This document shows, one piece after another, positions 21,001-24,000 of a stretch of DNA of 50,702 bases (positions within the stretch are counted from its first letter, which is position 1; each line of letters starts with the position of its first letter). The position numbers are program-made. This stretch comes from a virus: UHGV virus genome UHGV-0140686, one strand, 5' to 3'.

Positions 21001-24000
21001 AGAATCTCTTGGAGTAACGTCAGCAGAAATTACAGTTGCCACAGGTAAGAAAAACATGGTTTCTCACTGGTTCGGTCTTAGCCAGTGGCAGTTACCGAAC
21101 GAAGCCGATTACCTGAAATTGCAGACGTTGTTCCAGCAAATTGCCAGAGATAAACACTCACGAAACGAACTTGCTAAGCCCCATCACCAGCTTGTCGCAA
21201 CATGGCAATCTCTTAACCGGAAATACTGCGAACTTCAGCAGGAGTATCACTGCCTGCGGAGGCCGTTTAGTGTTTCCGTCTCGGTGCCGTATACCGACGT
21301 GTGGACTCATAAGCCTGTTCAGTTCTACCCAGGTAAGCACCCATGCGAAAAACCTGCCGATATGCTCCAGCAGATCATTACTGCAAGCAGTCGGCCGGGG
21401 GAGGTCGTAGCTGATTTCTTTGCTGGTTCTGGTTCCACACTAAAGCAAGCTGCTCTACTCGGGCGGAGTGGAATCGGCGTTGAACTGGAAACCGAGCGGT
21501 TTGAACAGACGGTCAGTGAAATGCGCAATTTGCTGGTTTAGCTCAGTAGGTAGAGCACCTGCCTTGTAAGTAGGATGTCGGTGGTTCGATTCCGTCAACC
21601 AGCACCAGAATGGTAGTGGGGCCAGCGCCTGAAGCGAATCCCAATCACGATGCGAAACATACATGTCCCAGCTGCTCGCAAAGTGACTCCAAAGCAGGGC
21701 CACAATTTGAATCTGCGGCAGCTGAGGCTGGCCGCTCCGTATCAGTAAGCGGATCCACCAGGCTCGCATTCGCGGGCCTTTTTCGTATCTACGCCACGCT
21801 CGGCGTTATTTAACCACAGAGCCTTTCAGGGGTGAGCCATAGGGAATAGTCAGTGTGACTGTCTCTGTGGGCTGATCATTCCTGAGCGCTGGCTCACCCG
21901 CTAAAAGGAAAGTCACTATGTTTGGATTCGGTAAAAAAGCACGTAAGGCAGTAGCAGAAGTTAAGAAGATGGAGAACCGCGATGCGGTAGAGGCAACTGT
22001 CTGGGGCGCATACTCGATTGCGTATGCGGATGGCACCTGTGATGCAAAAGAGATTGCGGTACTGGAGAAAACTATCTCCGCGCTGCCGGCATTTGCCCCG
22101 TTCGCTGGTGAAATTGCCCAGATGAGTTCGAACATTCGCGCTCGTTACGAAGCTTCCCCGCGTTCAGCTAACGCCGAAGCTATTCGTCAACTGGCTGATG
22201 TTGCCGGTACCTCTGATGCAGTGGATGTTCTCTGCCTCTGTCTGGATATTGCAGATAACGATGGTATTGGTGAAGAAGAAGAGGTGGCTCTGAAGAAAAT
22301 CTCCCAGGCTCTGCAGCTTCCTCTGGATCAGTATCTGTGATTGGCAAACTTCGCTGGGGCGCTGCCGGGGTGCTTTTGTTCTTGGTGGTTGCCATCGACT
22401 TCACCAGCAAAATGATGTCCATCCTGGCAGATGGCGTGCTGGTGGCCGGAGTAATTGCTTTACTCTGGCCGTTAATTAAGTCCAGTGAATAACACTGTGC
22501 AAAAGGCATCTTCGGGTGCCTTTGACAGAGTGCTTGCTATTGACGATGGGAATGAAGTAGCTATAAATTATTGGCGTGGTGAATCCCCCTGTGCGGAGGG
22601 GCGGAAACAGCTTAAATGGAATCCTTATGATTCACTCGGACCGCAAGTCATGGTTGCTGACCAAAGGCTTACTGAGAGGCACTCAGCACCACACCCCAAT
22701 TTAAGCCCACGTTAACGCGTGGGCTTAACATTAATGGCGTATTGCGAGTCTGATCGCTATTGCTTCCAGGTCGGAGAGGAATGTTTCCTCGTAAACTGCA
22801 TTGTTCATTGCGTCTATCGCAGCCTTACGATCTTGTTCATCACAGTATTCGTAGCGGTCTGCAATTTGAGTAATCATCTCAATAGAGATGTCGTCACCAC
22901 GCAACTTGTCGCTATTGATGATGTCGATGGCCGCTTTGATTTTCCCCATTTCAAGCTCCATCGCCTCGAGTAAGCGATTTGATAAGTTTTCCGGTTGGGA
23001 CTTCCCAGACACGAAATTCCTCACGGTACGGTCAGAAATACCGAGGGCGCGTGAAAGTGCAGACTGCCACTTATCCCCATATACCGCTTCCCCAACAGCG
23101 CGTAATTTTTCCAGATTGTTCATAGCATCTCACCTTTAGGCCCGCATCACGCGAGGCTATCAGAATTTTAAATGACGTAGCTGTTGATGATGGCTTCAGC
23201 GCTGTCGGCGTCAGTTGCATTGCGATACAGGTCTTCGACAATTTCGGCCTCGCGGTCAAGGTCGATGAAATCGATCATACCGTGATTGAACAGAAAAGTT
23301 TTTGCATCGCTGATTGAGTTGAACATTTCGAAACCCTCGTTGGTTATCGGTTGGCCAGTTGCCTTACCGTGAAAACATCTTATCAATTTCCTAGTTGTTA
23401 GGAAATATCCAAAAGTGCTATTAATTCCTAATAACTAGGAAATTAACTTTCAAGCTTACGGGAATCATCCTCGACGTGCTTTGTTGATAAATCCGGCCCG
23501 TTAAGCCTGTTTCTATTTCCCCTCATTACTGAGAGGACTCACAGCAATAAGAGGGGCCTATGTCCGATCCTTTAACTGGTACCGGCCTTATTTTTGGAGG
23601 CGGGTTAATTGGTTCTGTCGCTTATGGCGTTATTACTCATACCGATTTTGGTGTGGTGTTTGGAGCCTTTGGTGGTGCGGTGTTTTATGTGGCAACGACC
23701 GCGAACCTGACACGAGGGAGGCAGATAGCCTACTTCATGACATCGTTTATTGTCGGTGTTCTGGCTGCTGGACTATTAGGCTCAAAATTTACTGCCTGGA
23801 CAGGCTATACAGACCGCCCGCTTGATGCGCTCGGTGCAGTGGTGGCATCAGCTATCACTATCAGGGTCCTGACTTTCATCAACAGCCAGGATCTGAGCAG
23901 CCTGTTCGGAATACTTTCCCGATTTAGGGGAGGAGGTTCGAGTGGTAATAAATGACCCTGCTGCACTGGCCAATGCTGTTATTTGTGTCGTTATCGTCTG

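What the first reader, a model, noticed from the sequence alone, without database searches (positions are those of the whole stretch)
21918..22492. TerB-like protein plus overlapping membrane peptide as a cargo module
A 140-aa acidic protein resembling TerB is translationally coupled (GTGA overlap) to a 51-aa hydrophobic peptide. The pair is bracketed by terminator 21761..21783 upstream and a convergent regulator gene downstream. A stress or defence pairing is possible; the TerB assignment is tentative.
Basis: partly seen in the sequence, partly recalled or inferred. Interest (0 to 1): 0.5.

Follow-up and report, generated by a model that had tools for sequence, protein, structure and literature searches.

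The report
Phage tciA–tciB genes with structured leader
The two genes are an ordinary copy of the phage P1 tciA–tciB pair (a TerB-fold protein plus a tiny membrane protein of untested function), but they sit behind a strongly conserved, pseudoknotted RNA leader that no RNA database lists and that also precedes many other accessory genes in lambda-like phages.

Summary
Window 21918-22340 encodes a 140-aa acidic TerB-family protein. It overlaps by GTGA a 51-aa two-helix membrane peptide (22337-22492, DUF3927). Together they are the phage P1 tciA–tciB pair (84% and 43% identity), a named family whose function has never been tested.

The pair is a mosaic cassette (about 21760-22532) in the slot between antiterminator Q and the holin genes of a lambda-like prophage. 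Shiga toxin and subtilase toxin genes occupy this slot in other phages. I found no promoter, and a terminator sits directly upstream, so expression is probably lytic-phase only.

The convergent "regulator" lies in a separate 1-kb insertion and is not part of the module.

The unexpected result is the 126-nt untranslated leader (21792-21917).
- It is 94% conserved where tciA third codon positions are 47% conserved.
- It occurs 2,302 times in 940 of 5,426 complete E. coli genomes.
- It has no Rfam match.
- It folds into a pseudoknotted structure with clear covariation, and that structure pairs the ribosome-binding site.
- Diverged copies precede KilA-N, Ant and solute-binding genes, including one in phage HK022.

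The proposed protein mechanism is that TciB docks TciA at the inner membrane and the complex protects the infected cell's membrane. This is inferred, not shown.

The parts
18644..19420 (+). Late antiterminator Q. This is context: it is the likely source of terminator-resistant transcription into the module.
   Evidence: Pfam Antiterm PF03589, E=4.7e-42. Homologous phages place Q directly upstream of tciA.
19519..19545 (+). Strong intrinsic terminator about 100 nt after Q. It is a candidate tR'-like terminator (context).
   Evidence: 7-bp GC-rich stem followed by TTTTTTT. The tR' assignment is inferred by analogy with lambda-like phages.
21532..21607 (+). tRNA-Thr(TGT). tRNA genes are recurrent upstream neighbours of tciA.
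   Evidence: ARAGORN; Rfam tRNA, 69.9 bits. It is 87% identical to P1 trnT and 96% identical to the copy in Klebsiella phage 5 LV-2017.
21760..21787 (+). Intrinsic terminator that marks the 5' edge of the cassette.
   Evidence: A hairpin plus T-run ends 8-14 nt before the leader in 56 of 62 distinct flanks, and the stem sequences differ widely among them.
21790..21917 (+). Conserved pseudoknotted 5' leader RNA. Its elements are:
- P0: 21792-21795 with 21802-21805.
- Pseudoknot: 21814-21821 with 21863-21870.
- Anti-SD 21822-21826 with SD 21904-21908.
- P1: 21830-21839 with 21890-21899.
- P2: 21842-21847 with 21878-21883.
- P3: 21848-21851 with 21857-21860.
   Evidence: - Conservation: 94.4% median identity, against 78.8% for tciA and 47% for tciA third codon positions.
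- Covariation on 67 distinct sequences: 95.6% of cells paired, against 40-49% for slid controls. 22 of 36 pairs change on both sides, against 8.7±1.6 in shuffles (0 of 500 shuffles reach this). 6 of 8 pseudoknot pairs covary.
- No Rfam family matches.
- Covariance-model hit at 21790-21923, 161 bits.
21918..22340 (+). tciA: a 140-aa TerB-fold protein with a basic N-terminal helix and an acidic body.
22337..22492 (+). tciB: a 51-aa DUF3927 peptide with two membrane helices. Its GTG start overlaps the tciA stop (GTGA).
22493..22532 (+). Conserved 3' hairpin: a 9-bp stem with a UUCG loop inside a longer imperfect stem, and no U-tract. It marks the 3' edge of the cassette.
   Evidence: Predicted energy -23.1 kcal/mol, z-score -3.8. 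Relatives carry compensatory stem changes, for example GGCAUC/GGUGCC against GGCCAU/AUGGCC. Homology to most relatives ends at 22532.
22545..22731 (+). STnc100/PasD-type small-RNA gene. It is a neighbour and not part of the protein module.
   Evidence: Rfam RF02076, 72.3 bits against a gathering score of 47, E=3.8e-15. A promoter-like site lies at 22540-22569.
22731..23123 (-). It lies in an inserted segment and is not part of the module.
   Evidence: Only sub-threshold helix-turn-helix hits. Segment 22533-23515 is absent from CharmingMan, UMNK88 and Klebsiella phage 5 LV-2017. It has no close relatives in the phage collection.

Best explanation
**What it is (shown).** This is a copy of the phage P1-type tciA–tciB accessory operon. 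It is carried as a ~770-bp mosaic cassette in the Q-to-holin region of a lambda-like prophage. The cassette consists of:
- an intrinsic terminator;
- a ~125-nt pseudoknotted leader whose extended P1 stem pairs the Shine-Dalgarno sequence;
- tciA, a full-length TerB homologue;
- the translationally coupled tciB, a DUF3927 hairpin of two membrane helices;
- a 3' hairpin.

**How it most likely works (inferred).**
1. The genes are transcribed only by terminator-resistant polymerase during lytic development. No promoter was found and a terminator lies upstream. The P1 copy sits downstream of the C1-repressed ban promoters. Homologues occur in virulent phages.
2. The leader keeps translation off until a trigger frees the ribosome-binding site. 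The trigger is unknown. Candidates are pseudoknot formation, RNase III cleavage, a phage protein, or a small ligand.
3. Coupled translation produces the two proteins together.
4. TciB docks TciA at the cytoplasmic face of the inner membrane, as TerC is reported to partner TerB.
5. The complex conditions the membrane (cation balance or membrane potential). This protects the infected cell from pore-forming colicins or from superinfecting phage, so the phage can finish its programme before its holin fires.
For: **Identity**
- Pfam TerB and DUF3927 hits are above their cut-offs, and PHROG 632 and 1470 match.
- TciA is 84% identical to P1 TciA and TciB is 43% identical to P1 TciB.
- The family profile matches PDB 2JXU (TerB) with E=1.2e-27 over its full length.
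- The AlphaFold2 model has pLDDT 93.4 and six helices.
- The family consensus carries two ADG...E motifs. In the window protein they read AYADGTCDAKE and IADNDGIGEEEE.

**Pairing of the two genes**
- 97 of 98 loci keep TciB directly after TciA.
- TciB-like peptides with the ...WP(L/V)(I/F)K motif also follow TerB in N4-like Salmonella phage SP-058 and in Erwinia jumbo phage ChrisDB. An unannotated one follows TerB in Pseudomonas phage Nican01.
- A Vibrio N4-like phage instead carries TerB–TerC–TerB.
- TerC–TerB is reported as a membrane complex (PMC11003894 and PMC12054061).
- TerB is reported to be membrane-associated (Millman et al. 2022 preprint, citing Alekhina 2011).

**Timing of expression**
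- The terminator lies at 21760-21787, and no sigma-70-like promoter was found between the tRNA gene and tciA.
- 56 of 62 distinct flanks have a terminator directly 5' of the leader.
- In P1, tciABC lies after the C1-operator-controlled ban promoters.
- The pair occurs in lytic N4-like phages.
- P1 tci transcripts change during lytic infection.

**Leader**
- Conservation and covariation support a structured RNA.
- The SD AAAGG pairs with CCUUU in 98.8% of cells. Nested minimum-energy folds pair it in most variants.

**Phenotypic precedent**
- The ter operon gives resistance to colicins and phage.
Against: - No experiment exists for any TciA or TciB.
- P1 tciA, tciB and tciC are non-essential in a CRISPRi screen, so any role is conditional.
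- A physical TciA–TciB contact was not tested here. The one fused protein found (P0117) comes from a single contig and looks like a point change at the gene junction.
- The anti-SD/SD helix shows only one-sided changes, so covariation neither proves nor disproves it.
- The same leader family precedes unrelated genes (KilA-N, Ant, a solute-binding protein). It therefore says nothing specific about TerB function.
- A weak or non-sigma-70 promoter cannot be excluded by a consensus scan.
- The window also carries an STnc100-type promoter unit downstream, so the transcription map here may be more complex than assumed.
Confidence: 0.45

Rival explanations
1. Lysogenic conversion or host defence. The pair is expressed from the prophage and gives the lysogen resistance to tellurite, colicins or phage, like a miniature ter system.
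For: - TerB belongs to the ter cluster, which confers these phenotypes.
- TerB domains occur in the Bunzi and Shango defence systems.
- The slot is the one used for conversion genes such as stx and subAB.
- PHROG files both proteins under "moron, auxiliary metabolic gene and host takeover".
Against: - No promoter was found, and a terminator lies directly upstream in nearly all copies.
- There is no PADLOC hit.
- terC, terD and terZ, the genes whose disruption reduces or abolishes the ter phenotypes, are absent.
- The pair is kept by strictly lytic N4-like and jumbo phages, which have no lysogen to protect.
- The P1 copy lies downstream of the repressor-controlled ban promoters.
Confidence: 0.15
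2. Anti-defence decoy. The phage-encoded TerB copy, tethered by TciB, competes with host TerB for TerC or for other partners. This disables host Ter-, Bunzi- or Shango-type immunity.
For: - Host ter genes inhibit phages, and a terC deletion enlarges plaques.
- TerB-domain proteins occur in defence systems.
- The pair is present in many unrelated virulent and temperate phage lineages.
- TciA is a full-length TerB look-alike.
Against: - Most hosts of these phages lack ter operons (my own knowledge, not tested here).
- A decoy would not obviously need its own conserved membrane partner.
- There is no experimental precedent.
Confidence: 0.15
3. Cation channel or metal homeostasis. TciB oligomerises into a small ion-conducting pore, using its conserved Asp residues inside both membrane helices. 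The acidic TerB-fold TciA gates it, and the pair adjusts Mn, Zn or Ca levels, or sets lysis timing, for phage benefit.
For: - Asp residues in the ...DFTS... and ...ADG... motifs are conserved in 5 of the 6 diverse TciB sequences aligned.
- The TerB-family consensus carries two ADG...E motifs. Their proposed role in metal binding is from my own recollection of the literature and was not checked here.
- terC affects Zn and Mn resistance, and the ter operon is metal-induced.
- One phage carries TerC between two TerB genes.
- In lambda-like phages the pair lies immediately before the holins.
Against: - There is no structural or electrophysiological evidence.
- The Erwinia phage TciB lacks both Asp residues.
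- In P1 and the N4-like phages the pair is not next to lysis genes.
Confidence: 0.15
4. The leader is not a translational switch. It could instead be an RNA processing or stability element, for example a T7-type RNase III site or a 5' protective fold. It could also be merely a conserved recombination linker at cassette borders.
For: - The long, irregular P1–P2 stem with an asymmetric internal loop resembles phage RNase III signals (my own knowledge).
- The leader sits exactly at the homology breakpoints.
- The same leader borders many different cargo genes, as a recombination linker would.
Against: - Covariation, including G·U pairs that fit only the sense strand, demands selection on RNA structure rather than on DNA identity alone.
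- The Shine-Dalgarno sequence is consistently drawn into the fold.
- RNase III cleavage and translational control are not mutually exclusive.
Confidence: 0.3

Closest known systems
[quoted passage not shown]
   Same: - TciA is 84% identical and TciB 43% identical.
- The two genes are in the same order with overlapping stop and start codons.
- A homologous tRNA-Thr gene lies upstream (87% identity), and a DNA methyltransferase gene lies further upstream.
- Both are non-essential accessory genes.
   Different: - No tciC homologue follows tciB in the window.
- P1 lacks the pseudoknotted leader. DNA homology to P1 starts inside tciA at 21959, and the covariance model finds nothing in the P1 locus.
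- P1 places the genes in the early, C1-controlled ban operon rather than in a Q-to-holin slot.
TerB of the terZABCDE tellurite, colicin and phage resistance cluster (PDB 2JXU), which is reported to act with membrane protein TerC
   Same: - Homology runs the full length (profile E=1.2e-27).
- The fold is all-helical.
- The family consensus has two ADG...E motifs.
- The proposed logic is the same: a soluble TerB domain working at the inner membrane with an integral partner.
   Different: - No terC, terD, terZ, terA or terE gene is present in the window.
- The partner is a 51-aa DUF3927 hairpin rather than the large multi-pass protein TerC.
- The context is a phage late region.
TerB-domain anti-phage systems Bunzi and Shango
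   Same: They contain a TerB domain. Bunzi's TerB protein has membrane helices, and the authors proposed a role in membrane surveillance.
   Different: - Neither protein matches any PADLOC model.
- No helicase, ATPase or other effector gene lies adjacent.
- The pair is encoded by the phage, including virulent phages.
Toxin cargo in the same slot of lambda-like prophages (stxAB; subAB)
   Same: The genomic position is identical: Q, then (methylase), then tRNA genes, then the cargo, then (esterase), then holin. I therefore expect expression to depend on prophage induction. That dependence is known for stx2 (my own knowledge).
   Different: The proteins are unrelated. One subAB locus keeps only a truncated leader and a TciA remnant downstream of the toxin genes.
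Regulatory RNA leaders that sequester the Shine-Dalgarno sequence (pseudoknot riboswitches such as SAM-II and preQ1-II; phage Mu mom/Com; T7 RNase III signals). Comparison from my own knowledge.
   Same: The element is a 5'-UTR fold of about 105-125 nt. A pseudoknot lies next to a helix that contains the ribosome-binding site.
   Different: - It matches none of the 4,227 Rfam families.
- No ligand or binding protein is known.
- It always follows an intrinsic terminator rather than preceding one.
- It serves many unrelated genes.
HK022 put antiterminator RNA
   Same: It is a cis-acting structured RNA of lambda-like phages that acts during lytic transcription.
   Different: - put is a ~65-nt double hairpin that lies just after the early promoters.
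- The covariance model finds nothing in the early-promoter region of HK022, where put lies (position from my own knowledge).
- It finds one copy at 38555-38696, after the lysis genes and directly before a 242-aa ORF starting MSNIIPIDF (34.8 bits, E=3e-7).

Membership tests
TerB (Pfam PF05099) | Sequence matches the family HMM above the curated cut-off | tested here: met
   30.5 bits against a cut-off of 24.4, E=4.8e-7. Precomputed PF05099 hits are recorded for nearly all homologues.
TerB (Pfam PF05099) | Full-length homology to an experimentally solved TerB | tested here: met
   The profile of 93 representatives matches 2JXU_A with E=1.2e-27, profile positions 6-142 against chain residues 12-149. 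A single-sequence phmmer search found nothing.
TerB (Pfam PF05099) | TerB-like all-helical fold | tested here: met
TerB (Pfam PF05099) | Two ADG...E motifs | tested here: met
   The family consensus reads LVAxADGxxxxxE and AxADGxIxxxE. E45, A112, G116 and E121 are at least 90% conserved. The window protein has AYADGTCDAKE and IADNDGIGEEEE.
ter operon (terZABCDE) system | Co-occurrence with terC, terD and terZ, the genes whose disruption reduces or abolishes the ter phenotypes | tested here: not met
   The neighbouring genes are a methylase, a tRNA gene, DUF3927, a small-RNA gene, holins and an endolysin. The genes behind the ter phenotypes are described in PMC12054061.
ter operon (terZABCDE) system | Confers resistance to tellurite, colicins or phage | not testable with these tools
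   This needs MIC, colicin and plating assays.
P1 TciA/TciB module (PHROG 632 + PHROG 1470) | Close homology of both proteins to the P1 products | tested here: met
   PHROG 632 gives E=2.2e-60 and PHROG 1470 gives E=1.6e-22. TciA is 83.7% identical and TciB 43% identical to the P1 proteins.
P1 TciA/TciB module (PHROG 632 + PHROG 1470) | DUF3927 gene immediately downstream and translationally coupled | tested here: met
   The window has the GTGA overlap. 97 of 98 loci are adjacent, and 84 keep the same overlap. In P1 the two genes overlap by one base.
P1 TciA/TciB module (PHROG 632 + PHROG 1470) | Third small gene, tciC | tested here: not met
   tblastn with P1 TciC finds only noise elsewhere in the window and nothing after tciB.
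DUF3927 (Pfam PF13064) | HMM match above the cut-off, and a small protein of about 50 aa with two membrane helices | tested here: met
   54.3 bits against a cut-off of 25. The hydropathy profile shows two segments. W44, P45 and K48 are invariant across six diverse phages.
Known anti-phage defence systems (PADLOC-DB v2, which I expected to cover TerB-domain systems such as Bunzi and Shango) | Match to any defence-system protein model | tested here: not met
   Zero families for TciA and TciB at E<=0.1.
Autonomous "moron" (own promoter, gene, terminator) | Promoter between the upstream terminator and the gene | tested here: not met
   The consensus scan finds no sigma-70-like site in 21608-21917. 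Only 8-14 nt separate the terminator from the covarying hairpin P0, so the RNA must start upstream of the terminator. A consensus scan cannot exclude atypical promoters.
Any Rfam 15 RNA family (for the leader 21790-21917) | Covariance-model score at or above the gathering threshold | tested here: not met
   The best hits are SNORD19 (19 bits against 35) and Parabacteroides-1 (18.9 bits against 93.4). Both are spurious.
STnc100 (Rfam RF02076), for the neighbouring element 22545-22731 | Covariance-model score at or above the gathering threshold | tested here: met
   72.3 bits against 47, E=3.8e-15, covering the full model 1-206.

The most novel reading that the evidence does not exclude
The tciA leader is one member of an undescribed family of pseudoknotted RNA leaders. 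Each follows an intrinsic terminator, sequesters the Shine-Dalgarno sequence, and gates translation of an accessory gene in the late operon of a lambda-like phage. The gated genes are unrelated to one another: TerB/TciB, KilA-N, Ant, a solute-binding protein, and unknowns. Carriers include classical phage HK022 and multiple prophages of EHEC strains such as O157, O103 and O111. In the most novel reading, the fold is a true switch that responds to one shared signal: an ion or metabolite, a phage protein, RNase III or a small RNA. That would be a hidden regulon of phage cargo genes.
Probability: 0.3. Interest if true: 0.8.

Novelty: new member of a known kind. Interest (0 to 1): 0.5.

Why it matters
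The protein pair itself adds little. It is one more copy of a gene family that was named in 2004 and never tested. It does show three useful things:
- The TerB-plus-TciB pairing is far older and wider than annotated. It reaches N4-like phages, jumbo phages and Pseudomonas phages.
- It occupies the Shiga-toxin slot in many EHEC prophages.
- Its expression signals point to a lytic-phase role, not lysogen protection.

The leader RNA matters more.
- It is a compact fold with strong covariation.
- It is present about three times per genome in one sixth of complete E. coli genomes.
- It is missing from Rfam and from the genome annotations I inspected.
- It sits in front of many different cargo genes.

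If it controls translation, it would be a shared control point for phage accessory genes in major pathogens. It could be tested at once in phage HK022 or in any O157 strain.

Tried and rejected
- **Fusion evidence.** I considered the 196-aa TerB–DUF3927 fusion P0117 as evidence of physical interaction. I dropped it because it comes from one contig, is of the P1 type, and has a junction consistent with a point change at the 1-base overlap.
- **tciC.** I looked for a tciC homologue and found none.
- **PasA/PasC.** I asked whether the leader is the PasA or PasC small RNA, because a preprint places TerB genes within 10 kb of them. Those RNAs lie between the esterase and the holin and end in their own terminators, so they are different elements.
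- **HK022 put.** I asked whether the leader is a put-like antiterminator. It differs in architecture and position, and the covariance model gave no hit in HK022's early region.
- **Other RNA motifs.** Comparison by eye with kink-turn and HDV-like or theta ribozyme layouts gave no convincing match, and no Rfam ribozyme family matched.
- **Leader–sRNA pairing.** An RNA duplex test between the leader and the neighbouring STnc100-like RNA was uninformative. The method pairs the two whole molecules and ignores their internal structure.
- **Promoter in the leader.** I looked by eye and by scan and found none.
- **Literature.** The P1 genome paper (PMC523184) is not held, so the P1 statements rest on the GenBank annotation. 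Searches for a TerB-linked riboswitch or a lambdoid pseudoknot leader found nothing relevant.
- **The inserted segment.** Segment 22533-23515 has no close relatives in the phage collection.
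Full report
**1.

The window holds an ATG-started ORF of 140 aa at 21918-22340. A GTG-started ORF of 51 aa lies at 22337-22492. They share the four bases GTGA. The larger protein is acidic (pI 4.62) with a basic first 17 residues. The smaller is hydrophobic (GRAVY 1.33) with two hydrophobic stretches. An intrinsic terminator lies at 21760-21787. A convergent 130-aa ORF lies at 22731-23123.

**2. Both ORFs are real, named genes**

- The 140-aa protein passes the Pfam TerB cut-off (30.5 bits against 24.4). The 51-aa protein passes the DUF3927 cut-off (54.3 bits against 25).
- PHROGs places them in family 632 ("tellurite resistance", E=2e-60) and family 1470 ("TciB-like", E=2e-22).
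- tblastn shows 84% identity to phage P1 TciA and 43% identity to P1 TciB.
- A CRISPRi screen scored P1 tciA, tciB and tciC as non-essential.

**3. The TerB assignment is firm**

**4. The pairing is ancient and phage-wide**

In 98 loci that encode a close TciA, 97 have a TciB homologue directly downstream, and 84 keep the same 4-base overlap. In the same loci TciB diverges much faster (33-94% identity) than TciA (80-94%).

A small TciB-like peptide ending in ...WP(L/V)(I/F)K also follows more distant TerB genes:
- in N4-like Salmonella phage SP-058;
- in Erwinia jumbo phage ChrisDB (gp7);
- unannotated, in Pseudomonas phage Nican01.

A Vibrio N4-like phage instead has TerB–TerC–TerB. TerC–TerB is reported as a membrane complex. 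The simplest reading is therefore that TciB is the membrane partner of the TerB-fold TciA. That is an inference; I ran no interaction test.

**5. Genomic setting**

The window is a lambda-like prophage. It carries a Q antiterminator at 18644-19420 (PF03589, E=5e-42), two holins, and a GH19 endolysin from 23560. Between Q and the holins lie, in order:
- a strong terminator (19519-19545);
- two small ORFs;
- a DNA methyltransferase;
- tRNA-Thr;
- the terminator at 21760;
- tciA and tciB.

Related phages and prophages show the same order: Q, then (methylase), then tRNA genes, then tciAB, then (esterase), then holin. This is where Shiga-toxin genes sit in Stx phages (my own knowledge). One E. coli strain carries subtilase toxin genes there, followed by a leader remnant.

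DNA homology to relatives runs from about 21760/21792 to 22532 and resumes at 23516. So tciAB is a discrete cassette. Segment 22533-23515, which holds the convergent "regulator", is a separate insertion with no close relatives. The left end of that insertion is an STnc100/PasD-type small-RNA gene (72.3 bits against a gathering score of 47). This kind of RNA is known from the Q-to-holin region of pathogenic E. coli prophages.

The window's tRNA-Thr is 87% identical to P1 trnT, and tciA is 77% identical to P1 tciA at the DNA level. Lambda-like phages and P1 therefore share the tRNA–tciA linkage.

**6. The unexpected part: the leader**

The 126 nt between the terminator and the tciA start codon are 94.4% identical (median) to 75 related loci. 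tciA itself is 78.8% identical, its third codon positions 47%, and the terminator 32%.

The leader accompanies TciA proteins that are only 38-42% identical to this one. It occurs at 2,302 places in 940 of 5,426 complete E. coli genomes, with a median of three copies per genome. No feature is annotated under it in the listed hits. In the phage collection, 20 records carry it. It matches no Rfam family.

Sequence variants reveal these elements:
- a 5' hairpin, P0;
- a long stem made of P1 and P2, capped by a small hairpin, P3;
- a pseudoknot between the strand just 5' of P1 (CCACAGAG) and the apical loop (CUCUGUGG).

Counted on 67 distinct sequences:
- 95.6% of cells form standard pairs, against 40-49% when the partners are slid.
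- 22 of 36 pairs change on both sides, against 8.7±1.6 in shuffles (0 of 500 shuffles reach this).
- The pseudoknot was not part of the model used to build the alignment. Six of its eight pairs covary and 95% of its cells are paired.

An independent MAFFT alignment gave the same picture. Frequent G·U pairs fit only the sense strand.

The Shine-Dalgarno AAAGG pairs with CCUUU as an extension of P1 in 98.8% of cells. That helix shows only one-sided changes. Nested minimum-energy folds pair the SD in most variants.

A hairpin plus T-run ends 8-14 nt before P0 in 56 of 62 distinct flanks, with many different stem sequences. The RNA must therefore arise by read-through of a terminator.

**7. The leader is a family, not a TerB-specific device**

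A covariance model built from the tciA leaders finds the same architecture in front of other genes:
- a secreted NMT1/TAXI-like solute-binding protein followed by a 41-aa hydrophobic peptide;
- an Ant/KilAC antirepressor;
- two KilA-N proteins;
- several proteins of unknown function.

Some prophages hold three copies within 9 kb. These diverged copies keep P0, P1, the CUUUCAG linker and the AAAAGG Shine-Dalgarno region. Their pseudoknot strands have new, still complementary sequences: GAAAG/CUUUC, CGAUA/UAUCG, CCAAAGA/UCUUUGG.

Classical phage HK022 has one copy at 38555-38696. It lies after the lysis genes, behind a terminator, and directly before a 242-aa ORF starting MSNIIPIDF (34.8 bits, E=3e-7). 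HK022's early-promoter region, where the put antiterminator sites lie, gave no hit, and put has a different architecture.

**8. How it most likely works**

Shown:
- the identity of the genes;
- the cassette boundaries;
- the structured leader;
- the terminator in front and the lack of a recognisable promoter.

Inferred:
- Transcription depends on antiterminated, lytic-phase polymerase. This agrees with three observations. In P1 the genes lie after the C1-controlled ban promoters. The pair occurs in virulent phages. P1 tci transcripts change during lytic infection.
- The leader holds the ribosome-binding site closed until an unknown trigger acts.
- TciB anchors TciA at the inner membrane.
- The complex stabilises membrane or ion status against colicins or superinfecting phage. 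This borrows the phenotypes of the ter cluster.

I put 0.45 on this package as a whole. I am much more confident in the identity and the RNA structure (above 0.9), and much less in the protective function (about 0.3).

Rivals:
- lysogen protection (0.15);
- an anti-defence decoy (0.15);
- an ion-channel or lysis-timing role (0.15);
- for the leader alone, a processing or stability element rather than a translational switch (0.3).

**9. Verdict**

As written, the finding describes a known, annotated and functionally untested phage gene pair. That makes it a new member of a known kind, of modest interest. The convergent-regulator bracket and the lysogen-defence idea are not supported. The leader RNA found next to the pair is the part worth pursuing.

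Noticed in passing
window 22545-22731 (+): STnc100/PasD-type prophage small-RNA gene (Rfam RF02076, 72.3 bits against a gathering score of 47) directly after the tciB hairpin. A promoter-like TTGACG-18-TAAATT lies at 22540-22569. The same element follows tciB in two Klebsiella phages.
   Followed up: partly
window 22533-23515: About 980 bp inserted relative to related phages. It carries two minus-strand ORFs: 130 aa with sub-threshold helix-turn-helix hits, and 72 aa. It has no close relatives in the phage collection, and its function is unknown.
   Followed up: partly
L230 (phage HK022) 38555-38696; L001 6625-6742; L132 8856-8996; L180 1350-1487 and 3827-3967; L113 7244-7368: Diverged copies of the tciA leader RNA. 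They keep the terminator, P0, the pseudoknot and SD pairing. They sit in front of KilA-N, Ant/KilAC and solute-binding genes and genes of unknown function. One prophage holds up to three copies.
   Followed up: partly
window 21532-21607; L003 (P1) 3927-4002; L106 (Erwinia phage ChrisDB) 586-1054: tRNA genes lie just upstream of TerB genes in three unrelated phage types: P1, lambda-like phages and a jumbo phage. The window's tRNA-Thr overlaps the last 10 bases of the methyltransferase gene and is 87% identical to P1 trnT.
   Followed up: partly
L107 (Pseudomonas phage Nican01), about 1575-1765: Unannotated ORF directly after the TerB gene. It encodes a clear TciB homologue (...DSVSRIISMCADGFLAVLIFVLIWPLIKK).
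   Followed up: no
L108 (Vibrio phage BUCT194) 1-1623: An N4-like virulent phage encodes TerB, a TerC/Alx membrane protein, and a second TerB in a row.
   Followed up: no
L105 (E. coli CFIAFB20190172) 513-2738: Subtilase AB5 toxin genes occupy the tciAB slot. A truncated leader and a C-terminal TciA remnant follow them. This suggests cargo replacement at this site.
   Followed up: no
window 19519-19545 (+): Very strong intrinsic terminator about 100 nt after the Q gene. It may be the tR' of the late promoter unit. The promoter itself was not located.
   Followed up: no
L010 and L051, about 60 nt upstream of tciA: tciA genes that lack the main leader have a different upstream hairpin. It carries its own compensatory changes (AATGATCATCATGGTGGTCATT against AATGCTCATTGCGGTGAGCATT). 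This may be a second type of leader.
   Followed up: no
window 22493-22532 (+): The hairpin after tciB has a UUCG tetraloop and no U-tract, so it is not a canonical terminator. Its flanks (CACUGUG...CAGAGUG) resemble the leader's pseudoknot strands. I do not know whether that is meaningful.
   Followed up: no
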